Shown piece after piece: positions 3,403-30,082 of a stretch of 64,000 bases of DNA. How positions within the stretch are numbered: the stretch's first letter is position 1; each line of letters begins with the position of its first letter. This DNA comes from Balanoglossus misakiensis. Lineage: Eukaryota > Animalia > Hemichordata. Where the stretch lies: contig CM082598.2 of assembly GCA_040954595.2 (NCBI GenBank), positions 6,649,097 to 6,713,096 of the forward strand, read 5' to 3'. Position numbers and translations under genes: made by a program. The notes under the pieces are model-generated. The model searched no databases and was not told the DNA's origin. It saw only the letters and a list, made by a program, of their open reading frames with translations.

Positions 3403-3501
3403 AATGGAGATACCCCTTTGCACAATGCAGCAAGGTTTGGTGATGAAGGCCATGTCAGATTGTTATTGGAACACGAAGCTGATGTGACCATACAAAACAA
3501 G
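3403..3501 (+). CDS. Ankyrin cassette exon A1 (NGDTPLHNAARFGDEGHVRLLLEHEADVTIQNK)
   Basis: 99 nt, phase 0/0, cattacttacAG|...AAG|GTaaat. Confidence 0.9.
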
Positions 3502-6500
3502 GTAAATACCAACCTGATTTCTGCAGGTTAATTCTATCAGTATGGAAAGATTTATTCATTTATTTTTTCGTTTGTTTGTATGTGTGTGCTTGTTTTTTTG
3601 TTTAAAGAAAATTACACATTGCGTTTAATTTTTGTGACATTATTCTCATGCTCCTCCTTCATTACTTACAGAATGGAGACACCCCTTTGCATTATGCAGC
3701 AGGGGATGGTGATGAAGGCCGTGTCAGATTGTTATTGGATCACGAAGCTGATGTGACCGTACAAAACAAGGTAAATACCAACTTGACTTCTGCAGGTTAT
3801 TTCTGTCAGTATGGAAAGATTTATTCATTTATTTTTTCGTTTGTTTGTATGTGTGTGCTTGTTTTTTTGTTTAAAGAAAATTACACATTACGTTTAATTT
3901 TTGTGACATTGTTCTCATGCTCCTCCTTCATTACTTACAGAATGGAGACACCCCTTTGCATTATGCAGCAGGGGATGGTGATGAAGGCCGTGTCAGATTG
4001 TTATTGGATCACGAAGCTGATGTGACCGTACAAAACAAGGTAAATACCAACTTGACTTCTGCAGGTTATTTCTATCAGTATGGAAAGATTTATTCATTTA
4101 TTTGTTTGTTTGTTTAGGAATCCTCACAGTATGTTTCAAATGTTATGACATTGTTCTCATGCTCCTCCGCCATTAAGGCTGCCCCACACGAGAGAAATCA
4201 GCTGAGCAAAAAGTCATTCGAGGAATTTTGCTCAGCAATTTTCCTTCCGTGTGCGGGCAATTTTTCCTGATCTTTTTACTTTTGCGCCGCGGATCACAAT
4301 ATTCAACATGTTGTATATTGTTTTTCCTCACGAGGAAAATTACTCACTGTGTGCGCCGAACAAAGTAATTTTACTCACGTATCTAGCCTAATTGCGCATG
4401 CGCCGGCATCACTTGACGACGATACCAACCTGACTTCTGCAGATTAATGCTATTAGTATAGAAACATTTATTTATTTATTTGTTTGTTTGTTTGTTTAGG
4501 AATCCTCACAGTATGTTTCAAATGTTATGACATTGTTCTCATGCTCCTCCTCCATTACATACAGAAATACTCACCAGTACGGTGTGGGCAAGAAATTAAG
4601 TTACTCACAATGAAAATGCTTCATAATAATGGATGACCACAGACAAGTTCTCTACCTCTGATAATGATAACAGTAATTTAGGCACTCTATGCAAGTCAAA
4701 ACACAGTATTTCACTCAAACAAACACTTTCTGAACATTAATGATCACCAAAGTCATCTCTAGTCATTAGTCTAAACAAAGATTTCCCATCCATGTAAATT
4801 TTCTGGTCTCATGCAGATCTATACAAATTGATCCAAATCAGTTTTTCCCTCAAAACTGTCAAGATGAATAAAGGCACAATCTACTGTCTGTATTTTCTTT
4901 GTAACAGACCTGATGAGAGACAGACATTGTAAAAATTATAAATTTCATGAAAAGAGATCATTGTTTAAAAGATTAAAATCAAATTTTCATCAAGCCTCTG
5001 GACTAAAATCATGAGGATATCTATCAAATACATTGGTCTGGCTATTTTACCTTCTATGGTTTGCAGCTTTTGAAATTGTTCATCGTTATGAGGAAATTTA
5101 TCTGTTATCTCTAAACAAAGTCAAATTGAACATTCTGACATGGTGGACCTATTACACACAATGCATTCATTTAATTCAACTCTATCATTTAAAGCTACAT
5201 TGACGTGGAGACATCCAACTCAAAAACATGTGTCACGGCCACCATGATCCCATTTAGGGATTACACAGAAAGAGTCTACACCGGAGTACATATACAGACA
5301 CACACACACATAGAGAGATCAATAGGCAAACACTGCCTGACCCATAAGCTGCCAATGGCATGTGAAATGTACATAGACCAAGTAGAACAGCTGGTCTCTT
5401 TAACAGTTAGCCAGTTATGTAAACATGCAGGAATTTGATGTATACAAATCTCAGAGGGGTGCATTTTTGTATTACAAAGAACTATGTACTGGTAATTGTT
5501 CTTATTGAGATAAAAATTGTGGTATGAGACAAAATATCCTACAAAATATAAAAGTTCCAAATTACCTATGATTTGATTCCATAGTATTTCTAAAGAAACC
5601 AATCTCATTAACTTACACTCGAATTTTACAGTAATCAGCCATACAGAATACACTTTCAGAGAAATATAATTTTTTATCAAAATTGGAAAATATGCTCCCA
5701 AAATACAAGATATTGCCCCCACAAAACATTGACACTTTAATCACCATGACAACTCACCCAGGAACCTTCAAATCAAAATTCAAAGCAATGGGGGTAGAGG
5801 GTTCTGAGAAAAAGTTTAACCAAAAGTACACTAAATGTATTGAATTCTTCACGTTGATTTGAAAATACATACATGCAAATCTTACTTGGGGTACCCCTAG
5901 GAACATGTCTTCCAAATTTCAAAGCAATCTGACAAGCAGTTATAGAGAAACCTATTTGATCAAAAAAGGCAAAAATGATAAATATGCAAATTTTGCAACA
6001 ATTTAAACAAAATTATGGTAACTCAGATCACATATATGAAGCTTCATACTGAATTTCAAAGAAGTCAGCGGATCAATTCTGGAATAGTAAATTTTTTTAC
6101 CAAAAATGTGACAAAATGCATAAAGAGTAGAAAATTCACACTACTAGTATTAGCTCAAAACGTACAGAACCGTGTGAACACAACTTCCATCCTGCTTGTA
6201 TGATATGAGAGTAAAAATATCGCCAAAATAATAAATGGTGAACACCGATTATTCATTTTGGCGAGTTTTTCACTCTCCCGCGAGAGACTTTGTTCCTTTA
6301 ATATTCATGAGTTTACTTTTCTTGTTTATATACACTCTTATAAAGATTGGCTATTACATCAAGTTGACAACCCCCGCACAAGTACATCATGTACATAAAC
6401 AAAAATAGTCTAGTGTGTGGAGCCGCCTCCCCTTTTTACAGGAAGTACTTTCGAAATATTTTTATGCAATCAGTCCACACTCATGATCAGTTTTGTGTCA

Positions 6501-9500
6501 GAATTATACCGTAGTCATAGCAACATTTCGAGTAAGACTTTACCAGAAGAACTTGTTTTTGTTGCGGCTCTGATTGGGGCCATTTAAAACTGGGGTTTGT
6601 TTGGCGACTTTTAGGACCGAAGGAGGGAAGCGCAGCCATGGTCTCATCACACATGCCATGCGGGGGGACTTGCTAGGGGGGAGGGTGCTTGTTGACAGTG
6701 CCGAGAGGAGTCGGCCAGTTTGAGCTTGTACTTCAGGCCGAATAGCGCAGTGCCGACCCTATTTACCTCTTATCAACTTGATAAAATATAATACATTGTA
6801 ACATTAAATTGATCAGTCTGACAATTTTTTTCATCAGTCTGAGCAACACAGTGGCGGCGTTTGGATTCCTCTTTCTCTTGGAAGTCGCTCAAGCTTATAA
6901 AACATGAGGTCTGTGCAGCTCCGCTCCTCAGCTTCTCATCACTGTCCGTCACTTACCCAATCATTTCAAAGGGGCGATCAAGATGGCCAGAACAGCCAAT
7001 TTTAACCAACCATGCAGGTTCAAGAACCTGAGAAAATATGCTAAAAGCATGCATAGATATATTGAAGAGATAAACATTGGGAACAATAGGATTAAGGGAG
7101 GTGTGACTGGTCCAATCTGTTCAGTTTTAGTGTGGGGCACGGCTGGAATGGTTACACAAATGTTCTTGAAAGTTAGTGCTACTGTGGCTTTCAATGGAAT
7201 CTCTTATGAAGAGTTTTGTTACTTTTGTTTGTTCTTGATATGTCATGAAAAGAATGACTGCATTCAGTGTTTCATTGCATTTAATTTCATTTGCCACACA
7301 TTCCCATTGGCCACAGTGTCCACTCAAGTCTTGCGTTGGTTATTAGACTTTTTGATGCAGTGCGATGGAGAAAGGGAATCAGTGTTAACTTTCTTCAGAT
7401 GATTTTTTGTGTGAAATTCATTTTTTTTATTTAAACGCTATTTCTACAAATAACTAGTGACACCATTGCACAACTCTACTTGATATTGTTGGACCACTCA
7501 GTAGAAATTTATTTTGTGGATGATTGATTTATCCCTTGTCACATAAAATTTCTCTGTTATTTCCCCTTTGATCAACATTGTCCAGTCTGCACAGCTTGGC
7601 TACTTTGTGCTGAGAACAGTCTGATGCCCTCCTACAGGAAATAAACAGTTTGGATAGCACAGATGTTTGATCTGTTTCTACGTAAATCTTCACACCTCTC
7701 AAATTTGTCATCATATTGGAGATGAGATGTGATTATTCCAAATTGGCCATTGTGTCTTCTGACAATTCTACTATACGTCACTGTAGTTGTTGTTTAAATC
7801 TTCTTCTATATTGTGTAGGTTGTAAAAATAAATTGGTCCCATTCAGGAAATGTTCACTAACATTACATCACTGTCAGTTGTGTTGTGTTCATTCTTCGAT
7901 AGAAAATCATAAATAAAGTTCAGTTTAAAATTGGTGTATTGGTTATCCGTAATGTTATTTGTTTTGCAAATTGTCAAATTTGAGTTTGTTTGTGAATTAT
8001 TGGGAGTAACTTTTCTTAATGTATCAACTGGCAGATATTTCGTCGGAATTTATTTAGCTTGTTAATATTATCCACAAGGGAGTTTGCGATGACAATTTGT
8101 TGTTTGTGTGTTTGTTCGGTCGTTCATTTTAACAAATTAACCTCATGTTACATGTTACAGTTTTCTTGCCATCCTTATCATGCTCCTCCTTTATTACTTA
8201 CAGGATGGAGACACCCCTTTGCATTATGCAGCAAGGGATGGTGATGAAGGCCGTGTCAGATTGTTATTGGAACACAAAGCTGATGTGACCATACAAAACA
8301 AGGTAAATACCAACCTGACTTGTGCAGGTTAATTCTATCAATGCAGATTAATTCTGAAAGTATGAGCTTTCTCAATAGTCCCAAATTCCACTGTAGTTTT
8401 CGTGGTAAATTGTGTCTGGCATTCAATGTATCTATTTGTCCATTGTCCTTTGAATCAAAACTACTCCCTCTGTCGAGTCAGGTGTTGTACAGACACAGGC
8501 AAGTATTGATTCATGATGATGATGTGATTGTCTCTCCTATCTCTGAGACATTTGATCTCCACTGTCAGCAATTTGGGGTTATGAGAAAGTGGGATTGGCT
8601 CCGGCATCTACCAACACCTGTCTTGTCGAACATAAGAATGCTGTTGTTTTTTACATTGTTTATCATAATTTTTTTGTGTTTTAAATAATAACCTCATTTT
8701 TGGACACTGATTTCTGTCTGTCCGTCTGTAGACAGATTTTGTTCCACTCATAACTTGAGAGAAATTGAATCCAATGATATGAAATTTGATATGTAGCATT
8801 GTTATGATAAGATCTAGATCTGATTAGATTTTGGTGGGTGTGGCTCATTAAGTAAATGCTCATTTGCATATTTAATGATGTCTTGTGATTAGGCCATATC
8901 TCCATAAATACTCAATCAAATTTAGTGGAACTTTTTTCATAATTTTTACATTGCTCATTACCAACAATATGATGAAAGTTTAGTGGGTTTCACTTAATTA
9001 ATTCTCATTTCCAAAATTAATGAATTAATGAAATTAGGCTATAGCTCAAAACTGTCTCAAGCAAATTTGGCGCTGTGCTAGAGGGACTTCATAATAATAA
9101 AAAAATATTTAATTCATGAATATTTCTGTGAACAACATCGTGAACACTGATATTTGTGTGATCGGTGCCAAGTATAACTAATACATTTTGTTACATAGTC
9201 CCATCTAGCGGTGAGAATTATCTCAACTTTGGATCTGATACTCTCTCAGTCAGTCATGACAGTTTTTCCCCACATAGATTTAGACGTGGTGGGTATGGCC
9301 GATTTGCCTCAAATCACCAAGTCTATTAAACGGACAAATATATCTCTCTCGCTGTCCTTTTTCCATTAATTATGTTTCATACAAGACACCGTTAATATTA
9401 TTCTACATGTGTATATGTAGTGAAGGAATGTTCAACCACACACAACTTCCATCCTGCTTGTATGATATGAGAGTAAAAGTCTCGCCAAAATAATAAATGG

Positions 9501-12500: not shown

Positions 12501-15500
12501 ACAGTCTGTTGCCCTCCTACAGGAAATAAGCATAGTTTGGTTAGCACAGATGTTTGATCAGTTTCCACATAAATCTTCACATCTCTCAAATTTCTCTTTT
12601 ATTTCCCCTTTGATCGATATCGTCCATTCTGCAAAGCTTGGCTACTTTGTGCTGAGAACAGTCTGTTGCCCTCCTACAGGAAATAAGCAAAGTTTGGTTA
12701 GCACAGATGTTTGATCTGTTTGTTCATAAATCTTCACATCTCTCAAGTTTCTCTTTAATTTCCCCTTTGATCGATATCGTCCAGTCTGCACAGCTTGGCT
12801 ACTTTGTGCTGAGAACAGTCTGATGCCCTCCTACAGGAAATAAACATAGTTTGGTTAGCACAGATGTTTGATCTGTTTGTTCATAAATCTTCACATCTCT
12901 CAAATTTCTCTTTTATTTCCCCCTTGATCGACATCGTCCAGTCTGCAAAGCTTGGCTTCTTTGTGCTGAGAACAGTCTGTTGCCCTCCTACAGGAAATAA
13001 ACATAGTTTGGTTAGCACAGATGTTTGATCAGTTTCCACATAAATCTTCACATCTCTCAAATTACTCTTTTATTTCCCCTTTGATCGACATCGTCCAGTC
13101 TGTACAGCTTGGCTACTTTGTGCTGAGAACAGTCTGATGCCCTCCTACAGGAAATAAACATAGTTTGGTTAGCACAGATGTTTGATCTGTTTGTTCATAA
13201 ATCTTCACATCTCTCAAATTTCTCTTCAATTTCCCCTTTGATCGATATCGTCCAGTCTGCACAGCTTGGCTACTTTGTGCTGAGAACAGTCTGATGCCCT
13301 CCTACAGGAAATAAACATAGTTTGGTTAGCACAGATGTTTGATCTGTTTGTTCATAAATCTTCACATCTCTCAAATTTCTCTTTAATTTCCCCTTTGATC
13401 GATATCGTCCAGTCTGCACAGCTTGGCTACTTTGTACTGAGAACAGTCTGATGCCCTCCTACAGGAAATAAGCATAGTTTGGTTAGCACAGATGTTTGAT
13501 CTGTTTCTACATAAATCTTCACATCTCTCAAATTTCTCTTCAATTTCCCCTTTGATTGACATATGCATCCAGTCTGCACAGCTTGGCTACTTTGTGCTGA
13601 GAACAGTCTGATGCCCTCCTGCAGGAAATAAACATAGTTTGGTTAGCACAGATGTTTGATCTGTTTCTACATAAATCTTCACATCTCTCAAATTTCTCTT
13701 TTATTTCCCCTTTGATCGACATTGTCCAGTCTGCACAGCTTGGCTACTTTGTGCTGAGAACAGTCTGATGCCCTCCTACAGGAAATAAACATAGTTTGGT
13801 TAGCACAGATGTTTGATCTGTTTCTACATAAATCTTCACATTTCTTAAATTTGTCGTCATATTGGAGATGACATGTGATTATTCCAAATTGGCCAATGTT
13901 TCTTCTGACAATTCTACTAAATGTCACTGTAGTTGTTGGCTAGATCTTCTTCTATATTGTGTAGGTTGCATAAATAAATTGGCCACATTCAGTAAATGTT
14001 CACTAACATTACATCACTGTCAGTTGTGATGTAATCATTCTTTGAAAGAAAATCATAAAAAGTTAAGTTTAAAATTGGTTATGCGTAATGTTATTTGTTT
14101 TGCAAATTGTCAAATTTCAGGTTGTTTGTCAATTACTGGGAGTAACTTTTCTTTCTGTATCAACTGGCAGATATTTTCACAGAATTTATTTAGCTCGATC
14201 GTTTAAGTACATGTATAAAACTGAATTATACATCTTGTGTTTAGAGTGGATACAGTTTCTGTTTGAATGCCATAAGCGAGTTTGCGATGACAATTTGTTG
14301 TTTGTTTGTTTGTTCATTCATTCATTCGTTCATTTTAAGAAATTAACCTCATTTGACATTTCAGTTTTTTTTGGACATTCTCATCATGCTCCTCCTTCAT
14401 TACTTACAGGTTGGAGACACCCCTTTGCATCATGCAGCAAGGGTTGGTGATGAAGGCCGTGTCAGATTGTTATTGGAACACGAAGCTGATGTGACCATAC
14501 AAAACAAGGTAAATACCAACATCACTTCTGCAGGTTAATTCTATTCAGGTTAAAACTGTATTGACCAATCAGCACGCTCGATATTAATGTCCAATCACAG
14601 CCATGCATTAAATGGCCTTTACCTGACCCCTTTCGTGAGTGTAGCGCCAGCAGCGGGAGAAAGGGGGCAGGGTACCAGACTAAATACCAACCTAATTTCT
14701 GCAGCTTAATTCTATCAGTATGGAAAGATTTATTCATTTATTTTTTTGTTTGTTTGTATGTGTGTGCTTGTTTTTTTGTTTAAGGAAAATTACACATTAC
14801 GTTTAATTTTTGCGACATTATTCTCATGCTCCTCCTTCATTACTTACAGAATGGAGACACCCCTTTGCATGGTGCAGCAAGGGATGGTTATGAAGGCCGT
14901 GTCAGATTGTTATTGGAACACGAAGCTGATGTGACCATACAAAACAAGGTAAATACCAACATCACTTCTGCAGGTTAATTCTATCAGTATGGAAAGATTT
15001 ATTCATTTATTTGTTTGTTTGTTTGTTTAGGAATCCTCACAGTATGTTTCAAATGTTATGACATTGTTCTCATGCTCCTCCTCCATTAAGGCTGCCGCAC
15101 ACGAGAGAAATCAGCTGAGCAAAAAGTCATTCGAGGAATTTTGCTCAGCAATTTTCCTTCTGTGTGCGAGCGATTTTTCCTGACCTTTTTACTTTTGCGC
15201 CGCGGATCACGATATTCAACATGTTTGAAATTTTTTTCCTCACGAGAAAAATTACTCACTGTGTGCGCCGAACAAAGTAATTTTACTCACGTATCTAGCC
15301 TAATTGCGCATGCGCCGGCATCACTTGACGACGATACGAACCTGACTTCTGCAGATTAATGCTATTAGTATAGAAACATTTATTTATTTGTTTGTTTGTT
15401 TGTTTGTTTTTGAATCCTCACAGTATGTTTCAAATGTTATGACATTGTTCTCATGCTCCTCCTCCATTACATACAGAAATACTCACCAGTACGGTGTTGG

Positions 15501-18500: not shown

Positions 18501-20756
18501 TACAGGAAATAAATATAGTTTGGTTAGCACAGATGTTTGATCTGTTTCTACATACATCTTCACATATCTCAAATTTGTCATCATATTGGAGATGAGATGT
18601 GATTATTCAAAAATCTTCTGACAATTCTACTAAATGTCATTGTAGTTGTTTGCTAAATCTTCTTCTATATTGTGCAGGTTGCAAAAATAAATTGGTCCCA
18701 TTCAGGAAATGTTCACTAACATTACATCACTGTCAGTTGTGATGTGTTCATTCTTTGATAGAAAATCATAAATAAAGTCCAGTTTAAAATTGGTGTATTG
18801 GTTATCCGTAATGTTATTTGTTTTGCAAATTGTCAAATTTGAGTTTGTTGGTGAATTATTCGTAGTAACTTTTCTTTTTGTATCTACTGGCAGATATTTT
18901 GTCAGAATTATTTTACCTCGTTAAAATGCATGTATAAAACTGAATTACACATCTTGTGTTTAGAGCCGATACAGTTTCTGTTCAAATGCCATTTACTGTT
19001 GGTTAATATTATCAACAAAGGGAGTTTGTGATGACAATTTGTTGGTTGTTTGTTCATTCAGTTGTTCATCTTAAGAAATTAACTTGTGTGACATTTCAGT
19101 TTTCTTGACATTCTCATCATGCTCCTCTTTAATTACTTACAGCATGGAAACACCCCTTTGCATTATGCAGCAGAATGTTTTCGTGGTGAAGGCCGTGTCA
19201 GATTGTTATTGGAACACAAAGCTGATGTGACCATACAAAACAAGGTAAATACCAACCTGACTTCTACAGATTACTTCTATTGGTATAGAAACATTTATTT
19301 GTTTGTTTATTTGTTTATTTAGGAAACCTAACAGCACGTTTCAAATTGTATGACATTAATTGTTCTCCTGCTCCTCCTTCATTACTTACAGGATGGAGAC
19401 ACCCCTTTGCATTATGCAGCAAGGGATAGTGGTGAAGGCTGTGTCAGATTGTTATTGGAACACGAAGCTGATGTGACCATACAAAACAAGGTAAATACCA
19501 ACATCACTTCTGCAGGTTAATTCTATCAGTATGGAAAGATTTATTCATTTATTTGTTTGTTTGTTTGTTTAGGAAAACCTCAGAGTATGTTTCAAATGTT
19601 ATGACATTGTTCTCATGCTCCTCCGCCATTAAGGCTGCCGCACACGAGAGAAATCAGCTGAGCATAAAGTCATTCGAGGAATTTTGCTCAGCAATTTTCC
19701 TTCCGTGTGCGGGCGATTTTTCCTGATCTTTTTACTTTTGCGCTGCGGATCACGATATTCAACATGTTTGAAATTTTTTTCCTCACGAGAAAAATTACTC
19801 ACTGTGTGCACCGAACAAAGTAATTTTACTCACGTATCTAGCCTAATTGCGCATGCGCCAGCATGACTTGACGACGATACCAACCTGACTTCTGCAGATT
19901 AATGCTATTAGTATAGAAACATTTATTTATTTATTTGTTTGTTTGTTTGTTTGTTTGTTTGTTTGTTTAGGAATCCTCACAGTATGTTTCAAATGTTATG
20001 ACATTTTTCTCTTGCTCCTACTCCATGACATACAGAAATACTCACCAGTACGGTGTTGGCAAGAAATTAAGTTACTCACAATGAAAATGCTTCATAATAA
20101 TGGATGACCACAGACAAGTTCTATACCTTTGATAATGATAACAGTAATTCAGGCACTCTATGCAAGTCAAAACACAGTATTTCACTCAAACAAACACTTT
20201 CTGAACATTAATGATCATCAAAGTCATCTCTAGTCATTAGTCTAAACAAAGATTTCCCATCCATGTAAATTTTCTGGTCTCATGCAGATCAATAGAATTT
20301 GATCCAAATCAGTTTTCCCCTCAAAACTGTCAATATATATAACGGCACAATCTACTGTCTGTATTTTTCTTTGTAACAGACCTGATGAGAGACAGATATT
20401 GTAAAAATTATAAATTTCATGAAAAGAGATCATTGTTTAAAATATTAAAATCAAATATTCATCCAACCTCTGGACTAAAATCATGAGGGTATCTATCAAA
20501 TACATTGGTCTGGCTACTTTGCCTTCTATGGTTTGCAGCTTTTGAAATTGTTCATCGTTATGAGGAAATGTATCTGTTATCTCTAAACAAAGTCAAATTG
20601 AACATTCTGACATGGTGGACCTAATACACACAAAGCATTCATTTAATTCAACTCTATCATTTAAAGCTTCATTGACGTGGAGACATCCAACTCAAAAAAA
20701 TATGTCACGGCCACCATGGTACCATTTAGGGATTACACAGAAAGAGTCTACACCGG

Positions 20757-20820
<64 letters not shown>

Positions 20821-23800
20821 TCAAAAGGCAAACACTGACTGAGCCATAAGCTGCCATTTGCATGTGAAATGTACATAGACCAAATAGAACAGCTGGTCTC
20901 TTTAACAGTTAGCCAGTTATGTAAACATGCAGGAATTTGATGTGTATACAAATCTCAGAGGGGTGCCTTCCCCATTACAAAGAACTATGTACTGGTAATT
21001 GTTCTTCTTGAGATAAAATGTTTTGTGGTATGAGACAAAATATCCTACAAAATATAAAAGTTCCAAATTACGTATGATTTGATTCCATAACATTTCTAAA
21101 GAAACCAATCCCATTAACTTACAACTCGAATTTTAAAGTAATTAGCCATACAGTATACACTTTCTGAGAAATGTGATTTTTTATCAAAATTCAAAAATAT
21201 GCTCCCAAAATACAAAATATTGCCCCCCCCCCCCAATAAAAAAAATTATTATACACCGACTGCTGTAACCTATGGAGTTCCGTAATACAATAATTCGCGG
21301 TATCACCGTACAATAATTATTCAAATGAGGACGCGGAGTCCAATAACACCAGGGTTATTGGACGCATTGTGACTTTGACCTCACAGGACTGGTGATCAAT
21401 GTAAACAATGATGATATTAACCCAACTCTGACGAAAATTTATATAAAAAAGTACACAGCCGTTATTAAACAAAATTAGTGGTGACCCAAGATGCGAAATA
21501 AGTCAAAATCCACGCTGAAATTTCAGTCAAAAGAATCTGTGAACGAACAGGCGAGCGCGTTCATTTCAAGTTCCAGAACGAGCTCAGCGCAAGCAGCGTA
21601 GAACGTCGCGCGCGAGACAGGCAGTTCGACACTAGCATCACCTGATGCGCGAGGTGAAGGCGCGTTCGATATGCAAATTACATCATGGCGGCGTCTGAAA
21701 ACTAGAAAGTCCGACAGCGGCCTATTTATTCTTTATCCTTCATCATGGACGTCCGGAAAAGGTGTACAATAATAAGGTTATTCACAAAATACCGGGATTT
21801 ATGTCCTCATACATCGTACGCTTCGGTATTGTCCTCGACGCTGCGCGTCTTGGACAAAACCTGCGATGCACGATGTACTCGGACATAAATCCTGGTATTT
21901 TGTGAATAACCTTATTATATTGACATTTTAATCATAGGTTTTGTGAATCATCATGAGAACTCACCCGGGAACCTTCAAATCAATATTCAAAGCAATGGGA
22001 AAGAGTTTGACCAAAAGTACACTAAATATATTGAATTCTTCACGTTGATTTGCAAATCTTACTTGAGGTACCCCTAGGAACATGCCTACGAAATTTCAAA
22101 GCAATCTGACACGCGGTTTTAGAGAAAAAACTATTTAGTCAAAAAAGGCAAAAATGAAAATATACACATTTTGCAACAATTTAAACAAACCTATGGTGAT
22201 TCAGATCACATATATGAAGCTTCATACTAAATTTCAAAGAAGTCAGCTGATCAATTTTAGAAAGAAGATTTTTTTACCAAAATTGTGAAAAAATGCATAA
22301 AAAATAGAAAATTCTCATTATTAGCTCAAAAACATACAGAACTGTATGAGGTTAACACAAGGTACATGCATACCAATTTCCAAATCAATATGACCAGTGG
22401 TTGTTGAGTTTCTGAGTTTTGACCGATTTCTCGTTTTACCCAGCTAATTTGCATATTTTGGCAATGACAACTTCATTTGAACAAACTCCTATCTACAGCC
22501 CTTAATGCATCTGCACACCAAATATTGAGGTGATATGCGCAGCGGTTTTCAAGTCATTGATGTGGATGAACACACATCCATCCATCCATCCATCCATCCA
22601 TCCATCCATTCATGCAGGTTTGAATTGTTTGAAACTTTCTTTTACTTTTTAATTTGAATCTGTGTCACTTTAATAAATAATTATCTATCTATCATAACCA
22701 AATGGGACAAAATGATATAAGCACCCTAAAAACTATCATGCACACCTTATCTTTTTGTACCTCTTACACCGTGTTGTCTGTTTTTGTTTCTTTGATAGGA
22801 TGGCAACACAGTACTCCACATGGCAGCAATGGGCAGACCGTCTTGGAAGGATTATGGTAAAGTCGTGAAACTATTGTTGCAATATGGTGCTGATATTGAC
22901 TGCAAGAATAAGGTACAATCTTCCACTTTTTTATTCCACGACATTCTATGACACATACTCCAGACCTACACCATGTGTTCTGATCAACTCCCATTTTGTC
23001 AAGTAGTTAATATTCATAATCTTTGAAATTGAAATGCACAATTTTATAAAATTCTTGAAATTGCCTGAACACTATCACTCCAAAATGAGTTTGCACAATG
23101 GTCCACTTTCCATTGTAGTTTTCATGGTAAATTGTGTCTAGGATACAATGTATCTATTTACCATTGTTCTTTTAATCAAAACTATCCCTCTATCAGGGCA
23201 TGGTGTTGTACAGTAAGGTGTTGACCCATGACGGTCAATGCCAATCCTATCGCTGAAACTTTCTATCTCTGTTTTCAGCGATGTGGAGAGCATATTTCTG
23301 TCGGCCTCCAGCATCTGCCAACTCCTGTCTGTCACCTAATAATCTAACAATTCACAATAAGGAGGGTTGTTTTTCATTGGTTATGCTCTATCTTATTTGG
23401 GTTTTAAATAATACTGTACTTTTGGTAAGAGTTTTTGATACAATGTGATGGAAAAGAGGAATCAGTGTTAATTTTCTTTAGGTGATTGTTGATTTTGTGA
23501 AAATCAGGTTTTGTTCACTATTAAACATGTCACTTGATGTGGTTATTTTTTTCATGAAAAATTTAAGACAATTATCTTTAAATTACATTATAATTTAATG
23601 AATTTTGATTTATGGTTATCTGTAACATTATTACTACTTTTATAAATATTAACATCATAATTAATGTTTCAATTCTTTTTATCCCAAATAAATAAGACTG
23701 GAAAGACACCACTTGATGTCGCTGAAAATGAGTCTAGTAAGGAGGTGCTGTCGGATTACATTCAGGTGAGTGAAATATTTATATTACGATGAATTTTAAT

Positions 23801-26800
23801 AATATACAACCTGAAGTGTGCTCATTCTGATTCATCTTGAATTAAAAGTGACCACATTTATATCGATATGATATAAATTATGACTTAATGTGGTGTCACT
23901 CTTAATGTACTCTCCAAACCCACAAATAAAATTGTATTTTGTGATTTATTTATTCCAGAAACGAAACGAGTACAATGTCCTGATGAAGGAATCAGGTATG
24001 GAATGTGACATTTTAAAGTTGTTCTTTGCTGGAGATGGTGGAGTTGGTAAGACTACATTATTGGAGTCACTTCAGAGGGTATGTTAATATTTTTTTTTTG
24101 ATTTGCGTAAAAGGTCTTAGCTAGTAGGCCATATTACAATATATGAGGGTTGTTTGTGTGAAAGTTTGCAAACTGGTTAAAATGATGGGCTAGAGTAAAT
24201 TCTTAATGAAAAACCCTTACTCACTGTCCTAAAATGTGTTTTGTGAAGCAAACGATGCCTTTCATGAAAAAAACTGCATGTGAAGAAAAATTGTCGCAAC
24301 TGATTCAAAACAAACGATTGGCAGAGTAAAAGCGCAATACTTCACATGCAAAATATTTTGTGCGCCAGCGATATTAAGAAAATATTTAGACAAACATTTG
24401 TAATCTCATCGCATATAAAGAAACTGCTGTAGATCGGAATGCCACATGTGAATGTATCAATATGTGACACAGGATAATTAAAACATATGCTTGGTAGATG
24501 AAATTTTGTTGTATTTTGGAAATATGGGCTTGAATTGTGAAAGTTCATAGCATTTTTTCAAGCCTTTAAAGAGGGTGGGATTGAGATTGTATTTCATTTG
24601 TTGTTTGTGTGTTTTGATTATCCATGGCCCCTGAAAAGGGAATATTGTAGTCACACATTTTACAGCTATGATTTTGTATGTCTCAGTCATATTGGAACAA
24701 CTCTGCATGCATCTTTAGTTTAAATTAACTCTATTTAAATGTATTGTTTAAAGGGACAATGTTTCTCTGGCTGCCCTTTTTCGATTAATTATGTTTGATA
24801 CAAGACACTGTTTATGTTATTCTACATGTGGATATATAGTGAATCAACGTTTGACCACACACAATTTCCATACCACTTGTAGAGATGAGGGTGAAACACT
24901 CGCCAAATTGAACAATCAGTCTCTACCGTTTATTCATTCTGGGGAGATTTTTACTCTCATATCCTACAAACGGGATGGATGTTGTGTGTGGTCAAACGTT
25001 GATTCACTATGTAGCCACATAACAAAAATGGTGTCTTGTATCAAACATAATTAATGGAAAAAGGGCTGAGATAGAGAGACTTTGTCCCTTTAATTTAATT
25101 CCTCAGGTTAGCTAGTGCAGCTTAGACAATTTAATGAGGTCTGATGCAGAGTCACAAGCAAATATGGTTATGCACAAAGACCAGAAAACTCAAAATAACT
25201 AGAATTGGTTTTCTTTCACTCCCCCTTATCAAAGATTAAAGAAACAACCCTGGAATCTGAAGAACGTGAACACATTCCCACACCTGGTATTGATGTCAAA
25301 AGTGTTCATATTCCTGACGTAGGAAATGTCAGTGTTTGGGATTTTGCTGGCCAGGCTGAGTATTACGTCACTCATAACATGTTTCTGGGAGCACCCAATG
25401 CTGTCTCCATATTGGTGTTCAAAGCTACAGACGAGAATGGTAAACTCAACACCTTTGAACGTGTGTTCCCACAGGTAAGAATCTTCACAGTAAAGTTAGA
25501 CTGTATATCTGTATGTTTTGCATTGTTTATCACTTATCAAAATTTATCTGCAGGAATGGAAAATATAGCTGTTTGAGTAAATTTATTCCATGTGCAACAC
25601 TATCTCAGTCACCATTCATGGCTTTTTGATAGAGTTGCAGATATTTCTATAATTAGTCTCCTGCAGAACCAACATGCCATTGTTGTTCAATAATTATTTC
25701 ACACCGTGTATCTGATAGCTCCATATATTACCTGAATCATGAGAAATCTCATATTGAGATTCAATTCATGATCTATTTGACTCATTGTCACAGTTGGCGA
25801 CTGATACTGTTTCTTTCTGTAAAAATGAGATTGTACATAAAGGCTGGTGGCCTAAAGTACTGAATAAAGCTTATTATTATAATTCATGATCTATTTGACT
25901 CAAAATTAATATTTATCACAAATATTCTCATTTGTAGATTTTGTTTTGGTTGCGGTTTCTGAAAGGAACAACCCACATGGACAGGTATTCATTTGATAAG
26001 TCAGGTGAAGGCTATGATAAACCAGTGGTGATGTTGGTTGCAAGTCGAGCTGATAGGTTAAAGAGAATCGATATGGCTCTAGGTTAGTGTTGTCAGCTTT
26101 TTCATATACACTGTCTCAAACGATATCTCTCATTTGTTTGTATGTATGTATGTATGTGTGTGTGTTTGTGACAGTGTGTGTGTATGTATGTATGGATGTA
26201 TACATGCATGCATGTATGTACGTACATACATGCGTGTGTGTTTGTATGCATGTATGTTTGTTTGTGTCATCTCACCATGCTGTCAGAAACTGAATACTTA
26301 CCTTGAGTAGAACGTAGTTAGTTGATTCACAAATGAAAGTTTGAAAATATTCGTAAAAACATTTAACCCTTTCACCACCATGATTCAGTCCAAACCAATT
26401 GTTTTCTATGGTAAGGTTGGACCTCTAAAGAGGGAACTGGGGGTGAAAGGGTTAATGACTATTTTATGCCCAATTGACAGAAAGGTTGTGGCTTAGTTTC
26501 TGCATATGGAGTTATCTGGCAATTAATATTATCATCTCTTTATAATTTACAGCTAATCATTTGCTGAAGGACGTTCTGACAGAAGCACAGAAAATGTTTC
26601 AAGATTATTTGGACATAGTGAATGCCATATTTTTGGTGAATTGCCGTGATTCTACAGACAGTGAAATGAAGAAACTCCGTGACTGTTTATATCAGAAAAA
26701 GGTAAAAAAAATTCTCTGTAGTCATTTGCCTCTTAATTGTTAAGTTTTATCAGCTCAAATACACTATAGCACTGCAGTATTGGTGTACAACTACAAGATT

Positions 26801-29800
26801 CATGAAGAATATATTTCTGAATGTGTAAAACATAACATCCTCATCATGTTGTACAAGTATTAGTTGATATCAGAATTTCTGGCAAAAGTAAAATTTTCAG
26901 TAATTACAAATAAAAATAATGTTGGTTGGAATGCATTGTTATTATAATTATGTAAAAACCCAGTCAAATGGTTGTGAGATGCTTTGTACAAAATTATCAA
27001 TTATGAAAATGTTGAAACAAGATAGGTCTGTTCAACTGAAAACCAGATATTGTATTTAAAGCAAATGCCAACTTGTGAAAACAATAATTGATTTGCCACG
27101 ATACTTCTTTGGTTCCCTGCCCCCATGTATACTACAGATATTTTCGACATAAATTCTCATTGGATAAATACAATTATATGCTTCATTTTTTTGTTAGGTC
27201 CCATTGGTATTAAACCATGGGACCTTATGGGATCGGTTGCGTCTGTATGTATAGATGGATGGATGTATGGATGGATGGATGGGAGTATGGATGTATGGAT
27301 GGATGTAAGTCTGTATGTCCGTCCATATCAAGAACTTGAAAACCGCTGCGTGTATCACCTTGATATTTGGTGTGAAGATGCAGGCTGGGCTGTAGATGGG
27401 AGTTTGTTCAAATGAAGGTGTCATCGCCAAAAAATATGCAAATTAGCAGGAAAAATGTGAATTTGGTCAAAACTCAGTAACTCAAGAAGTACTGGTCAGA
27501 TTGCTTTGCAAAGTGGTGTGTATTTACTTTATTGAGTTGTTTTAATTAGGCAGGAAGTTCCTGGTGTGATAGATTTACACAGCAAATTCCTGAATGATTA
27601 CATAACTGGCTAAGTTTTAAAGAGGCCAGCTGTTCTATTTAGTGTATGTACAGTACATATGCCATTAGCAGCTTATGGGCCAGTCAGTGCTTGCCCATTT
27701 ATCTCTTGCTATGTGTGTGTGTCTGTCTGTCTGTATATGGCCATGAACGCCGGTGTAGTCTCGGTTACCCAGACCCCCCTGCTTCTTCCGTTGGGCACTC
27801 CAGAAAGAGGGTCTGGGGAAACCCCATAGACAAATCTCCGGGCAAAGATGGCCGACTCGGGACAAAAGCGATGCATGATGGTCAACATTTATGACATACG
27901 ATATTATGATATGACGATATTAGAAAACTATTTACCAAACTTCTCTTTCTCTTTTCAATTTGTAGACAGTTTCAGCAGGTCTAGCACGTCTCAGCATGTA
28001 TTTTTAATGTTCGAGTCTGCAACCATCATGCATCGCTTCTGTCCCGAGTCGGCCATCTTTGCCCGGAGATTTGTCTATGGGGTTTCCCCAGACCCTCTTT
28101 CTGGAGTGCCCAACGGAAGCAGGGGGGTCTGGGTAACCGAGACTAACGCCAGTGTAGACTTTTTTGTGTGTAATAACTCAATGGGACCGCCGTGTCCTTG
28201 ACGCGATTTTTTCAAATACGAGATTTGCAGGGCCGGTCGTGGTTTTATTTAATATTTCTTTTTTTGTGACACAGTCCCTAAATTGACTGAATATTAATGT
28301 TTGGCTACTTCCAATTATTTCATGTTATCACTTTATTTTTAATCGTAGAAAGTGAAAATGCTTCCAAGCGTGTGTGCCAAGATAATGGAAAAGAAGAGGG
28401 AATTATATGATGACTTCCCAGCTCTTTACTGGACAGAATATGTGACAAGAATCAAAGAAATATACCCCACGATTGACAAAAGTTTCTTACAAAAAGCCAC
28501 CAACTATCTGCATGACATAGGAGAGGTCAGTAACAAGAAACAACACGTTGCTCATCCATTCTCTTATAGTATAAGTTCTAGAATGAGTGTATGTGATATA
28601 TCAAACTTGACAAATTGAAATGATCAGCATTTAATTCAGTTGATGTGTAAAAGAGTTACAGATTGTTCTATGCATAACAATTTCTCGTGTTACTTTTCTT
28701 GTTTACAGCTTTTGTTTGTGAAGCAGTCATCTCCAGAAAGAAAAGATGTCGTGGTATTGGATCCAAACTGGTTGTGTTACAGGATGTTTGGACCAATGTT
28801 GGCTACCCCTTTATTTGCACAATTCAGTTCCAGGTTCAAGAGAGATTGTTTTCAGTCAATGGACAAGATAGAAGATGTACTTGGTGAAGGTGTAAACAGC
28901 GAACTCATCGTCGACCTTCTAGAAGATTTTGAGCTTCTCTGTCAAGCACATGATATCACAGAGACTGGAGAGAAACTTTTCGTCATACCAGGGCTTCAAG
29001 ACGACGATATGCCTGAAGGTCAATGGGAAGTGAGTCGAACGAAGACCACCTACCTTGGAAGACGTTTTGAATGCCACGATGAAACAGATTCCTTCACAGC
29101 AGGCTTTTTCCCAAGATTACAGACCCGTCTATATAAGCATTTCACAGAGCTTGGCCGTCGGCCCAGTGGCTTATGGAAAAATGGTATCAAAGTGTGCCAT
29201 GATGTTGAAGGTCTTGTCGTTATGACCAATGGCAGAAGGGCAGTCAATGTATGCATACGAGTTGAAGACAAGAAGTCGATTGGTAAGGGTTACAAGCTTC
29301 TTGAGATGGTTTCCAAAGACATACAGGATGTCTTCTCTATCGCATGTCCAGGCAACAGGATGAATCAGCTTATCCTGAGTGCAGATTCTCTTGCAAACCA
29401 CAGCAACATGGAAAAAGTAGAGTTTTACACTCTTGATGACATGCTACGTGCAGAAGACACTGGGAAGAAAGTGTACAACACAAAAGTTGGTAAAGAAGAA
29501 GATGTTTGTGACCTGCTTTGTCAAGGTCATGACACAACGATCTTACGAAAGAAGTGGAAACGCTGTGATATCAAATGGATGCTTGAAGATACCAGACACA
29601 AAGTGACCATGAGAATGGACATCGAGCGTGGAGACCCTTCTTTGCACTATGCCAGCATGGCCGAATGGATGGGCATAAAATACACGGATGTGCGGACATT
29701 TGAAGAACAAGCTCGTCGCACTGGCCGACCAGTTACAGACTATATCTTCGAAGAGTGGTGTCGCAGATGGATGCAACAACATCAAAGTGGAAAAGCCACA

Positions 29801-30082
29801 ACTACAGCTGCAGGTGCCAGAGCCATGTCACATGACATAGATGCCACCAAAGGTCGTATGGCAAAAATGTCACTGTCGTCAACATCGTCACCCCCGCAAG
29901 ATTCAAGTGAAGAAGCGAAGGCTCAGAAAACAGCAAGACAGAAGTATCCACGTGTAGAGGGACCCCTCTACGAAAGCAACTTTGAGAATCTGTTGGCAAT
30001 TTTCAAGACCATGGGAAGAGACGACATGGTAACATTGATTGAAGAAATGTTTGCAGACATTGCGAAAACACAAACGAAATGA
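3403..30082 (+). CDS. Ankyrin repeat - ROC - COR - death domain protein (DAPK1-like ROCO), 5'-partial; 16 exons in window: 3403-3501, 3672-3770, 3941-4039, 8204-8302, 14410-14508, 14850-14948, 19143-19244, 19392-19490, 22799-22912, 23697-23765, 23959-24078, 25235-25474, 25938-26082, 26553-26701, 28349-28525, 28709-30082
   Basis: All exons have AG/GT boundaries and compatible phases; joined they give 3183 nt (1060 aa plus TGA) with no internal stop. Motifs: ANK TPLH repeats; G1 GDGGVGKT, G2 PTPGI, G3 WDFAGQ, G4-like ASRAD; COR (YLHDIGE, VVLDPNWLC, GFFPRLQTRL, LWKNG); C-terminal death-domain-like helices. No start codon in the window. Confidence 0.9.
3672..3770 (+). CDS. Ankyrin cassette exon A2 (NGDTPLHYAAGDGDEGRVRLLLDHEADVTVQNK)
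   Basis: 99 nt, phase 0/0, same splice flanks. Confidence 0.9.
3941..4039 (+). CDS. Ankyrin cassette exon A3 (identical to A2)
   Basis: 99 nt, 269 bp downstream of A2, identical exon sequence. Confidence 0.9.
4177..4421. mobile_element. One-ended transposon fragment (GGCTGC.. after TAA) occupying the place of an ankyrin exon; copies at 15090-15333 and 19633-19876
   Basis: Starts inside the conserved acceptor flank (ctcctcc..cattaa|GGCTGC) and ends at the conserved donor-side flank (ataccaacctgacttctgcag). Confidence 0.7.
8204..8302 (+). CDS. Ankyrin cassette exon A4 (DGDTPLHYAARDGDEGRVRLLLEHKADVTIQNK)
   Basis: 99 nt, phase 0/0, conserved flanks. Confidence 0.9.
10658..11208 (+). mobile_element. 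HINE/DINE-like (Helentron-associated) non-autonomous element
   Basis: Begins ttttTAGCTC, has a GTCC-type microsatellite and a duplicated internal core, ends GAGCTctatcggacgctaggtcgcttgTT; absent from the paralogous sites at ~7420 and ~18295. Confidence 0.65.
11332..13850 (+). repeat. Intronic tandem satellite, 157-bp unit x16
   Basis: The tttgatc landmark recurs at 11353, 11510, 11667 ... 13711; single monomers at ~7546-7703 and ~18414-18573. Confidence 0.95.
14410..14508 (+). CDS. Ankyrin cassette exon A5 (VGDTPLHHAARVGDEGRVRLLLEHEADVTIQNK)
   Basis: 99 nt, phase 0/0, conserved flanks. Confidence 0.9.
14548..14681. mobile_element. Half of a TAGTCT-terminated MITE abutting an orphan ankyrin donor-side flank
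   Basis: cctgacccctt..gtagcgc..ggggcagggtaccagacta resembles the right TIR of the MITE at 61317-61703; followed by aataccaacctaatttctgcag. Confidence 0.65.
14850..14948 (+). CDS. Ankyrin cassette exon A6 (NGDTPLHGAARDGYEGRVRLLLEHEADVTIQNK)
   Basis: 99 nt, phase 0/0, conserved flanks. Confidence 0.9.
19143..19244 (+). CDS. Ankyrin cassette exon A7 (HGNTPLHYAAECFRGEGRVRLLLEHKADVTIQNK)
   Basis: 102 nt (one-codon insertion after helix 1), phase 0/0. Confidence 0.9.
19392..19490 (+). CDS. Ankyrin cassette exon A8 (DGDTPLHYAARDSGEGCVRLLLEHEADVTIQNK)
   Basis: 99 nt, phase 0/0, conserved flanks. Confidence 0.9.
20760..20818. repeat. (CA)n microsatellite
   Basis: About 29 CA units, versus about 6 in the paralogs at ~5298 and ~16158. 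Confidence 0.95.
21247..21918. mobile_element. Non-autonomous element with short internal inverted repeats plus a long terminal hairpin (possibly Crypton-type)
   Basis: tattatacacc (21248) / ggtgtacaata (21761) inverted pair, then a ~146-bp hairpin at 21771-21916; absent from paralogous sites ~5730 and ~16590. Confidence 0.65.
22799..22912 (+). CDS. Divergent ankyrin exon A9 (DGNTVLHMAAMGRPSWKDYGKVVKLLLQYGADIDCKNK)
   Basis: 114 nt, phase 0/0, tttgatAG|...AAG|GTac. Confidence 0.88.
23697..23765 (+). CDS. C-terminal capping ankyrin half-repeat exon (TGKTPLDVAENESSKEVLSDYIQ)
   Basis: 69 nt, aatAAG acceptor, CAG|GTGAGT donor; GKTPLDVA cap motif. Confidence 0.85.
23959..24078 (+). CDS. ROC exon with P-loop (KLFFAGDGGVGKTTLLESL)
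   Basis: 120 nt, phase 0/0, G1 motif. Confidence 0.92.
24752..25089. mobile_element. TTAA-flanked MITE (Kolobok-like); partial relatives at ~6177-6302, 9329-9555, 17060-17183, 56999-57310, 63285-63535
   Basis: TTAA|AGGGACAA...TTGTCCCT|TTAA with long imperfect TIRs. Confidence 0.75.
25235..25474 (+). CDS. ROC exon with G2/G3 (PTPGIDV...VWDFAGQAEYYVTHNMFL)
   Basis: 240 nt, phase 0/0; ROC-typical WDFAGQxEYYxTH. Confidence 0.92.
25785..25880 (+). mobile_element. Severely 5'-truncated LINE 3' end with 22-bp TSD
   Basis: Perfect direct repeat aattcatgatctatttgactca (25763-25784, 25881-25902); insert ends ggctggtggcc..AATAAAgc(tta)n, like the LINE tail at ~33725-33765. Confidence 0.8.
25938..26082 (+). 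CDS. ROC exon (ILFWLRFLK...PVVMLVASRADRL)
   Basis: 145 nt, phase 0/1; WL..L and G4-like VASRAD. Confidence 0.87.
26367..26451. mobile_element. 85-bp TTAA-flanked mini-MITE (piggyBac-like CCC termini); copies at 56434-56517 and ~59444-59528
   Basis: TTAA|CCCTTTCACC...GGTGAAAGGG|TTAA. Confidence 0.8.
26553..26701 (+). CDS. ROC C-terminal exon (..FLVNCRDSTDSEMKKLRDCL..)
   Basis: 149 nt, phase 1/0; G5-region NCR. Confidence 0.85.
27756..28145. mobile_element. MITE with ~125-bp TIRs and 9-bp TSD (Mutator-like)
   Basis: TAGTCTCGGTTACCCAGACCCCC.. / ..GGGGGTCTGGGTAACCGAGACTA; TSD acgccggtg / acgccagtg (one mismatch). Confidence 0.85.
28349..28525 (+). CDS. COR-A exon (LPSVCAKI...ATNYLHDIGE)
   Basis: 177 nt, phase 0/0; COR motif YLHDIGE. 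Confidence 0.88.
28709..30082 (+). CDS. Terminal exon: COR plus death domain
   Basis: 1374 nt open; VVLDPNWLC, FPRLQTRL, LWKNG; death-domain-like YASMAEWMGI..PVTDYIFEEW..FENLLAIFKTMGRDD; TGA at 30080-30082. Confidence 0.92.
   Translation, partial: LLFVKQSSPERKDVVVLDPNWLCYRMFGPMLATPLFAQFSSRFKRDCFQSMDKIEDVLGEGVNSELIVDLLEDFELLCQAHDITETGEKLFVIPGLQDDDMPEGQWEVSRTKTTYLGRRFECHDETDSFTAGFFPRLQTRLYKHFTELGRRPSGLWKNGIKVCHDVEGLVVMTNGRRAVNVCIRVEDKKSIGKGYKLLEMVSKDIQDVFSIACPGNRMNQLILSADSLANHSNMEKVEFYTLDDMLRAEDTGKKVYNTKVGKEEDVCDLLCQGHDTTILRKKWKRCDIKWMLEDTRHKVTMRMDIERGDPSLHYASMAEWMGIKYTDVRTFEEQARRTGRPVTDYIFEEWCRRWMQQHQSGKATTTAAGARAMSHDIDATKGRMAKMSLSSTSSPPQDSSEEAKAQKTARQKYPRVEGPLYESNFENLLAIFKTMGRDDMVTLIEEMFADIAKTQTK

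What the first reader, a model, noticed from the sequence alone, without database searches (positions are those of the whole stretch)
3403..30082. Modular ankyrin-cassette ROCO gene: candidate variable 'natural DARPin' receptor coupled to ROC-COR-death domain
Seen: each ankyrin repeat is a separate phase-0 exon. Eight near-identical copies are scattered over 16 kb inside shared intron flanks and are followed by single-copy exons (A9, cap, ROC, COR, death domain). Any subset of cassettes can be gained, lost or skipped in frame. Established: ANK-ROC-COR-DD is the non-kinase part of DAPK1, death domains recruit signalling adaptors, and one-repeat-per-exon shuffling is described for LRR-ROCO genes of the brown alga Ectocarpus. 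Inference: this is an animal ankyrin analogue, a variable binding scaffold on a constant GTPase/death-domain module, plausibly an intracellular immune or non-self sensor diversified by exon copy number and/or splicing. I cannot establish from the window alone that it is undescribed.
Basis: partly seen in the sequence, partly recalled or inferred. Interest (0 to 1): 0.9.

Follow-up and report, generated by a model that had tools for sequence, protein, structure and literature searches.

The report
Acorn-worm ankyrin-cassette ROCO sensor gene
This animal gene, likely from an acorn worm, builds its binding end from eight near-identical one-repeat exons that differ mostly at the predicted contact surface, joined to a GTPase and a predicted death domain, and it likely belongs to an overlooked family of fast-varying intracellular immune sensors in marine invertebrates.

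Summary
Sixteen exons join into an open 1,060-codon frame: eight phase-0 ankyrin cassettes (seven of 99 nt, one of 102), a ninth repeat, cap, ROC, COR and a death-fold domain. The 5' end lies outside the window, behind a broken retrotransposon. The array grew by nested tandem duplication and also holds three exon-less dead cassettes. Changes concentrate on the ankyrin binding face, about 6x the synonymous rate (P=0.009) and 2-3x the intron rate; counts are small and whole-exon pN/pS is not significant. Public contigs show many more cassette variants, only frame-keeping indels, and, in one run covering only the exon, cassette-to-cassette joins that look spliced. The gene nests in an acorn-worm expansion of 'DAPK1-like' ROCOs with no N-terminal kinase; amphioxus has a parallel expansion with CARD, death, caspase and GT4 tails. 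Best reading: a germline-diversified intracellular sensor. Ligand, immune role, cassette skipping and between-individual number variation are untested. Analogues are known (brown-algal LRR-ROCO exons, fungal conserved-repeat NLRs); ten paper searches found no description of this ankyrin version. This scan noted a similar mussel gene before.

The parts
3403..3501 (+). Ankyrin cassette A1 (99 nt, phase 0-0)
   Evidence: Pfam Ank E 2e-9
3672..3770 (+). Ankyrin cassette A2
3941..4039 (+). Ankyrin cassette A3; exon identical to A2, its 269-nt unit differs at 6 intron sites
4158..4442 (+). Exon-less cassette remnant 1: acceptor flank, about 265-nt insert in place of the exon, donor flank; a bare acceptor flank follows at 4540
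6615..6800 (+). Candidate cryptic exon in the long intron (copies at 9866 and 17492); in-frame stop after 26-35 codons; end approximate
   Evidence: loose end of one contig of run X3 matches it right after an AG
8204..8302 (+). Ankyrin cassette A4
   Evidence: used as bait
14410..14508 (+). Ankyrin cassette A5
14850..14948 (+). Ankyrin cassette A6
15071..15354 (+). Exon-less cassette remnant 2 (bare acceptor flank at 15452)
19143..19244 (+). Ankyrin cassette A7 (102 nt; one extra codon in the helix1-helix2 region)
   Evidence: Pfam Ank E 6e-9
19392..19490 (+). Ankyrin cassette A8
19614..19897 (+). Exon-less cassette remnant 3 (bare acceptor flank at 20011)
22799..22912 (+). Single-copy ankyrin repeat A9 (114 nt)
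   Evidence: Pfam Ank E 3e-9; counterpart in P0254
23697..23765 (+). C-terminal capping half-repeat exon (cap role inferred)
23959..24078 (+). ROC exon 1 with intact P-loop
25235..25474 (+). ROC exon 2 (switch I and G3 motifs)
   Evidence: Pfam Roc E 6e-7; motifs
25938..26082 (+). ROC exon 3 (G4-position motif shared with relatives)
26553..26701 (+). ROC exon 4
28349..28525 (+). COR-A exon (by alignment to P0121/P0254; no Pfam hit on its own)
28709..30082 (+). Last exon: rest of COR-A, COR-B, linker, death-fold domain (about 29549-30076) with a low-confidence insert of about 48 residues (29798-29941), stop
1..3231 (-). Broken Ty3/gypsy-type retrotransposon, antisense, in the intron upstream of A1; separates the array from the missing 5' exons
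   Evidence: gag-, protease- and RT-like ORFs read by eye; the flank shared with the intron before A7 stops at 3230; LTR and primer-site edges read from the sequence (inferred)

Best explanation
This is likely an intracellular sensor gene of an expanded acorn-worm ROCO family: it carries eight near-identical one-repeat ankyrin exons whose differences concentrate on the predicted binding face, joined to a ROC-COR GTPase and a predicted death domain, and it would signal a bound foreign or altered target onward through that death domain. Shown: exon structure, open frame, nested intron-bounded duplications, dead cassettes, excess change on the face, family expansion. Inferred: unequal crossing-over and conversion between the shared flanks add, drop and mix cassettes in the germline; phase 0 keeps every product in frame; selection favours new face residues and in-frame loop indels; binding on the ankyrin groove switches ROC-COR; the death domain then recruits a death-fold adaptor or caspase. 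Splicing may add variants but is secondary until shown.
For: Face positions 2,3,5,10,13,14 (set from PMC3308923): 9 replacement alleles on 15.7 sites versus 2 synonymous on 21.3 in 6 distinct 99-nt cassettes, ratio 6.1, one-sided P=0.009. Against flanking-intron divergence: 10 observed versus 3.6 expected in 3 disjoint pairs without A7 (P=0.004; set with positions 10 and 33); 7 versus 3.1 without position 10 (P=0.037); other sites at or below the intron rate. Laying A4 on public contigs: 259 and 209 contigs in runs X1 and X2; 12 of 24 listed variant rows fall in 4 of 33 codons (positions 5, 10, 13, 14); the 8 listed indel rows all lie at codons 10-13 and, paired by equal depth, keep the frame. 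Run X3 has depth only over the exon and 3 head-to-tail cassette joins; no such join exists in the window DNA. ROC motifs intact. Top 7 fold matches are death domains, best Z 11.5, rmsd 1.8 A over 93 residues. The gene lies in a 13-row acorn-worm clade, SH-aLRT 100, quick tree. 94 of 109 hits to an amphioxus ROC-COR are Branchiostoma proteins, many with CARD, death, caspase or GT4 tails. 18 of 30 relatives with 4 or more in-register repeats have nearest-repeat identity of 0.7 or more, all 18 with a more variable face. Precedents: PMC3341825, PMC11378527, PMC13449251, PMC8195603.
Against: Whole-exon pN/pS is 1.9-2.3 and not significant (P about 0.2); the tests rest on 2-3 synonymous alleles or 3-4 pairs, and I had seen the alignment before fixing the position set. 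A more variable face is general in ankyrins: it also holds in the 11 of 12 further relatives that have no homogenised repeats, so clustering alone proves nothing. Two of the four library-type turn positions (2, 33) are invariant here. Non-face replacement sites change as fast as synonymous ones (ratio 1.08). X3 is not on record as RNA, and its contigs differ from the window's cassettes, so they may come from paralogues, alleles or intronless copies. Foldseek gave no match at E 0.001 and Z under about 13 can be a common helical arrangement. No ligand, induction, skipping or population data. The 5' end is not in view.
Confidence: 0.6

Rival explanations
1. Neutral or relaxed turnover: a non-immune ankyrin-ROCO scaffold whose phase-0 exons duplicate freely; surface residues drift while the core is held, with no selection for new specificity.
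For: Whole-exon pN/pS not significant; face more variable than core in ordinary ankyrins too; repeat-rich introns duplicate easily; dead cassettes.
Against: Face change is 2-3x the intron rate and 6x the synonymous rate; listed indels keep the frame and sit in one loop; the same pattern recurs with different repeat units in Glandiceps and amphioxus; relatives carry swapping death-fold, caspase and GT4 tails.
Confidence: 0.2
2. The repertoire is made mainly by splicing (Dscam-like or as in Ectocarpus ROCOs): each transcript picks a subset of cassettes, and a cryptic intronic exon gives short ankyrin-only forms.
For: All cassettes are symmetric phase 0 with near-identical splice flanks; one X3 contig runs from another ankyrin end through a single cassette into a sequence matching the intronic element at 6615/9866/17492.
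Against: No contig shows a skip between identifiable cassettes; the evidence is one contig of depth about 9 in a run not on record as RNA; no docking-type element was looked for; eight cassettes give a small repertoire next to the family's many cassettes.
Confidence: 0.09
3. A decaying paralogue: the retrotransposon insertion cut the gene from its promoter and first exons, and this copy is no longer made.
For: No first exon in the 3.4 kb before A1; broken element directly upstream; long end branch, 0.76.
Against: 1,060 codons and all 30 splice-site ends are intact; ROC motifs kept; the element is antisense inside an intron-type flank, so the gene may simply continue beyond the window.
Confidence: 0.07
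4. The array is inflated by assembly error (haplotypes or repeats placed in tandem).
For: A2 and A3 exons are identical; no laid contig spans the region.
Against: One intron segment occurs three times at 3.5-4.9% mutual divergence, more than two haplotypes can give; the A2 and A3 units differ at 6 intron sites.
Confidence: 0.03

Closest known systems
Acorn-worm 'DAPK1-like' ANK-ROC-COR-death proteins (Ptychodera flava XP_070550841.1 = P0254; Glandiceps talaboti LOC144450164 = P0001; Saccoglossus kowalevskii P0006, P0010)
   Same: Same architecture; 49% identity over 867 columns to P0254, 42% over 751 to P0001; P0001 has 15 homogenised repeats varying at the same positions.
   Different: Automatic annotations only; repeat unit sequences differ, so homogenisation is lineage- or gene-specific; their exon structures could not be checked.
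Brown-algal LRR-ROCO genes with one repeat per exon (Zambounis 2012 PMC3341825; Teng 2024 PMC11378527)
   Same: ROC-COR behind a repeat array, one repeat per exon, inactive exon copies, diversifying selection, proposed immune receptors.
   Different: LRR (72 nt) not ankyrin (99 nt); inverted intronic exons and alternative splicing reported there, not shown here; this gene has a death-fold tail and is animal.
Fungal NLRs with highly conserved repeats (HNWD het-d/het-e; ANK and TPR cases; PMC13449251)
   Same: Near-identical repeats with a few hypervariable positions, gain and loss by unequal crossing-over, in-frame length variants.
   Different: STAND ATPase rather than ROC GTPase; sensor C-terminal; allorecognition and length polymorphism shown there, not here.
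DAPK1
   Same: ANK-ROC-COR-death order.
   Different: DAPK1 has an N-terminal kinase (PMC4104024) and is single-copy with diverged repeats (recalled); no DAPK1 appeared among the hits that were named or scanned.
Amphioxus ANK-ROC-COR expansion, Trichoplax ROCOs (PMC4104024), prokaryotic AP-GTPase conflict systems (PMC8195603)
   Same: Expanded ROCOs with repeat sensor and death-fold or enzyme tails.
   Different: Amphioxus members form a separate clade with mostly CARD tails; the papers' passages describe LRR or TPR sensors, not ankyrin exon cassettes.

Membership tests
ROCO GTPases | ROC domain followed by COR | tested here: met
   Pfam Roc E 6e-7 and COR-B E 1.4e-8; COR-A by alignment to P0121/P0254
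ROCO GTPases | GTPase motifs present | tested here: met
   P-loop, switch I, G3 and G4-position motifs match those of relatives; motif patterns recalled
ROCO GTPases | GTP binding, hydrolysis, dimer switch | not testable with these tools
   needs biochemistry
DAPK1 orthologues | N-terminal Ca/calmodulin kinase domain | tested here: inconclusive
   5' end outside the window; no kinase exon seen upstream; 1 of 263 relatives has a catalytic-loop motif, C-terminal to a CARD; closest relatives start their ankyrins within 4-129 residues (11 of 13 with the motif)
DAPK1 orthologues | Single conserved copy | tested here: not met
   nests among multiple acorn-worm paralogues; no true DAPK1 was in the tree, so its relation to the clade is untested
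DAPK1 orthologues | C-terminal death domain | tested here: met
   predicted model matches IRAK2, Pelle, MyD88, FADD death domains, Z 9.8-11.5; Pfam below cut-off
Brown-algal exon-shuffling ROCOs | One repeat per exon | tested here: met
Brown-algal exon-shuffling ROCOs | Repeats are LRRs | tested here: not met
   ankyrin
Brown-algal exon-shuffling ROCOs | Diversifying selection on binding face | tested here: inconclusive
   face tests P 0.004-0.04, whole exon not significant
Brown-algal exon-shuffling ROCOs | Alternative splicing of repeat exons | tested here: inconclusive
   cassette joins and one cryptic-exon contig in run X3; no identifiable skip
Fungal high-internal-conservation NLRs | Repeats 80-100% identical with a few hypervariable positions | tested here: met
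   0-13 differences in 99 nt; four residues each at positions 3, 10, 14
Fungal high-internal-conservation NLRs | STAND (NACHT or NB-ARC) ATPase | tested here: not met
   ROC GTPase; NB-ARC and NACHT hits are P-loop only, below cut-off
Fungal high-internal-conservation NLRs | Repeat-number polymorphism between individuals | not testable with these tools
   contigs too short; no genome held

The most novel reading that the evidence does not exclude
Marine invertebrates (acorn worms, amphioxus, brittle stars, perhaps mussels) carry an unrecognised family of natural DARPin-like immune receptors: ankyrin exon cassettes, exchanged within and between ROCO genes and selected at the same positions engineers randomise, form a large germline repertoire, extended by splicing, that couples recognition to death-fold signalling through a GTPase switch, a ROCO parallel to NLRs.
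Probability: 0.35. Interest if true: 0.9.

Novelty: new variant of a known kind. Interest (0 to 1): 0.66.

Why it matters
How invertebrates without antibodies build specific recognition is an open question. This family is hidden under the label 'DAPK1-like', yet shows the marks of variable receptors and gives a testable unit: a 99-nt cassette with defined contact positions. If true it adds a ROCO-based receptor class beside NLRs in the sister groups of vertebrates, shows that algae, fungi and animals converged on the same repeat-cassette design with different repeats and switches, and offers natural ankyrin binder libraries.

Tried and rejected
No whole genome is held, so paralogues, upstream exons and cassette counts in this genome were not examined. 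Run search: no RNA holder listed. Whole-exon pN/pS not significant. Face-versus-core clustering rejected as proof of selection, because non-homogenised ankyrins show it too. First kinase motif screen was too narrow and was redone. Foldseek gave no match at E 0.001. Solved-structure sequence search returned only ankyrin matches in the 60 rows shown. The careful tree did not finish; the quick tree of 28 rows was used; P0103 was left out for lack of a P-loop match. tblastn of 13 relatives found no second ANK/ROC gene in the window; bases 60001-64000 were scanned by scripts but not read. Paper searches found no description of ankyrin-cassette ROCOs in acorn worms or amphioxus; the amphioxus pangenome paper PMC12373286 has no main-text mention of ankyrin, Roc or COR. 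Searches did not return a source for one-repeat-per-exon ankyrin genes, so that point is recalled. No supplements were read; source data of PMC8195603 and the trees of PMC11378527 may list these proteins. Somatic rearrangement (VLR-like) was considered and dropped: the cassettes are intact in-line exons and nothing here points to it. Look-ups of earlier findings by place and by sequence were empty.
Full report
Observation. A mismatch scan of both strands finds eight copies of one ankyrin exon, all on the plus strand. With eight further exons they join into 3,183 nt, 1,060 codons and one terminal stop; every cassette is phase 0-0 with AG/GT ends. Seven are 99 nt; A7 is 102 nt. Pairwise differences are 0-13 of 99 nt and A2 equals A3. 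Pfam places Ank on the three ankyrin exons tested, Roc on 25235-25474 and COR-B in the last exon; Death is weak, E 0.013. An AlphaFold model of the last 184 residues (mean pLDDT 75, 12 sequences) matches death domains in its top seven rows (IRAK2 Z 11.5, rmsd 1.8 A over 93 residues; Pelle 11.4; MyD88 10.2), with a low-confidence insert of about 48 residues that likely explains the weak Pfam score. Foldseek found nothing at E 0.001, though 10 of the 14 weak rows shown were death domains. ROC motifs are intact. There is no first exon in the window: a broken antisense Ty3/gypsy-type element fills 1-3231, and the flank before A1 matches the intron before A7 up to base 3230. More cassettes may lie upstream.

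How the array was built. Self-alignment shows a unit of about 4.6 kb repeated with rearrangement (3772-8338 against 14681-19280 at 91%; partial copies at 19246-21228 and 13690-14544) plus short doublings of 249-440 nt. Intron copies differ by 3.5-8.2% in substitutions. One segment occurs three times at 3.5-4.9%, which two merged haplotypes cannot explain. Three remnants keep both splice flanks but have a 265-nt insert where the exon was. Breakpoints lie in introns and phases are 0, so gains and losses keep the frame. This is ordinary tandem duplication and likely unequal crossing-over; no special recombination signal was sought or seen.

Where the cassettes vary. Positions 3, 10 and 14 each show four residues; 13, 15, 16 and 19 show three; 22 of 33 positions are invariant. 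A published library randomises 2, 3, 5, 10, 13, 14 as the exposed binding surface (PMC3308923, passages; PMC4308713, passages, gives the numbering). For 6 distinct 99-nt cassettes (A3 and A7 left out) there are 9 replacement alleles on 15.7 face sites, 8 on 62.0 other sites and 2 synonymous on 21.3 sites: face versus synonymous 6.1, one-sided P=0.009. Using flanking introns as baseline in 3 disjoint pairs without A7: 10 face differences against 3.6 expected (P=0.004), or 7 against 3.1 without position 10 (P=0.037); other sites 10 against 13.3. Against this: whole-exon pN/pS of 1.9-2.3 is not significant, the counts are small, I had seen the alignment before fixing the set, and a more variable face is seen in ordinary ankyrins as well. 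I read it as moderate evidence of diversifying selection. A2, A4, A5, A6 and A8 have no synonymous difference although their introns differ, a weak, untested hint of exon conversion.

Public runs. Five runs hold parts of 22700-30200; none is on record as RNA. Laying A4 with flanks (155 nt) drew 259 contigs in X1, 209 in X2, 12 in X3 and 1 in X4; X1-X3 are one sample. That is far more variants than eight cassettes would give and suggests a multi-copy family, but depth is not copy number. Of 24 variant rows 19 are replacements, and 12 lie in four codons (positions 5, 10, 13, 14); three mark a common subtype at positions 30-31. All 8 indel rows lie at codons 10-13 and, paired by equal depth, add 0, 3 or 9 nt. 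X3 has depth only over the exon and shows three head-to-tail cassette joins, which the window DNA lacks; I infer that X3 is RNA and that cassettes of this family are spliced together, with intronless paralogues as the alternative. One X3 contig runs from the end of a different ankyrin repeat (my reading of the loose end) through a single cassette with a 9-nt insertion into sequence matching an intronic element at 6615, 9866 and 17492, starting right after an AG; the window copies stop after 26-35 codons. This hints at short ankyrin-only or decay-bound isoforms, on one contig. X3 contigs are not identical to the window's cassettes, so expression of this exact locus is not shown.

Family. The best relatives are acorn-worm proteins annotated 'DAPK1-like': Ptychodera P0254 (49% over 867 columns, one of a five-member cluster), Glandiceps P0001, and several more from Ptychodera and Saccoglossus. 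A quick ROC-COR tree of 28 rows puts the gene inside a 13-row acorn-worm clade (SH-aLRT 100), sister to amphioxus members; hence the host is likely an acorn worm. An amphioxus query returned 109 proteins, 94 from Branchiostoma species and hybrids, with tails including CARD, death, caspase and GT4. Sea-star and brittle-star members also occur. Of 263 proteins held, one has a kinase catalytic-loop motif, and the two amphioxus proteins with a Pfam kinase carry it after the CARD. Of 30 relatives with four or more in-register repeats, 18 have nearest-repeat identity of 0.7 or more; of 12 further, mostly more distant ones only 1 does. P0001 has 15 repeats of two types varying at 5, 10, 13, 14. Repeat units differ between lineages, so homogenisation has recurred. 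No true DAPK1 was in the tree, so the family's relation to it is open.

Mechanism. Shown: structure, frame, duplication, face-biased change, family expansion. Inferred: germline gain, loss and conversion of cassettes; binding on the ankyrin groove; ROC-COR as switch; death-fold recruitment of an adaptor or caspase; an immune or non-self target. I put this at 0.6, neutral turnover at 0.2, splicing as main source at 0.09, decay at 0.07, assembly error at 0.03.

Known systems. Brown-algal ROCOs have one LRR per exon, selection and alternative splicing (PMC3341825, passages; PMC11378527, passages). Fungal NLRs have near-identical WD40, ANK or TPR repeats with hypervariable sites and length polymorphism (PMC13449251, passages). 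Trichoplax has at least 17 ROCOs with CARD and death domains (PMC4104024, passages and section 5 part 1). Prokaryotic AP-GTPases pair LRRs with variable effectors (PMC8195603, passages). Aplysia has TIR-ROCOs (PMC9334734, passages). PMC1553488 (passages) treats exon shuffling as a partial cause of repeat expansion in general. Ten searches showed no paper on ankyrin-cassette ROCOs in these animals; subscription papers and supplements were not seen. An unchecked note of this scan describes a similar mussel gene.

Verdict. Real, and a member of the ROCO family; works like the algal and fungal variable-repeat sensors but is a member of neither. New variant of a known kind, interest 0.66.

Noticed in passing
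window 1-3231, minus strand: Broken Ty3/gypsy-type retrotransposon (gag, protease, RT in several frames) with an LTR-like end of about 240 nt, inserted in the intron before A1; itself interrupted by a 760-nt element at 2083-2844 that recurs inverted at 50417-51204.
   Followed up: partly
window 11264-13890: 157-nt tandem array (about 16 copies) grown out of one segment of the duplicated intron unit; single copies at 7546 and 18416.
   Followed up: no
window 31720-32500: 25-nt tandem array of about 30 copies downstream of the gene; a degenerate 137-146 nt array lies at 30187-30672 just after the stop.
   Followed up: no
window 6615, 9866, 17492: Intronic element that one X3 contig appears to use as an exon after a cassette; would truncate the protein after the ankyrins.
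   Followed up: partly
window 29798-29941: Low-confidence Ser/Thr/Ala-rich insert of about 48 residues inside the death fold, longer than in relatives.
   Followed up: partly
window 34409-35179 and 41481-44261: LINE-type reverse transcriptase and endonuclease fragments, plus strand, broken.
   Followed up: no
window 26987-28564: One 577-nt contig in runs X4/X5 (a second organism label, depth about 2) joins 27183 to 28221, a version of the intron lacking about 1 kb.
   Followed up: no
proteins P0014-P0106 (Branchiostoma): Large amphioxus ANK-ROC-COR expansion with homogenised ankyrins of varying number and swapped tails (CARD, death, caspase, GT4, OTU, kinase), mostly labelled DAPK1-like or myosin-XVI.
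   Followed up: partly
proteins P0013, P0108-P0120 (unnamed metagenome contigs): Distant ANK-ROC-COR proteins (23-30% identity) on short to medium contigs, some with a chitobiase-type C-terminal domain; origin unknown.
   Followed up: no
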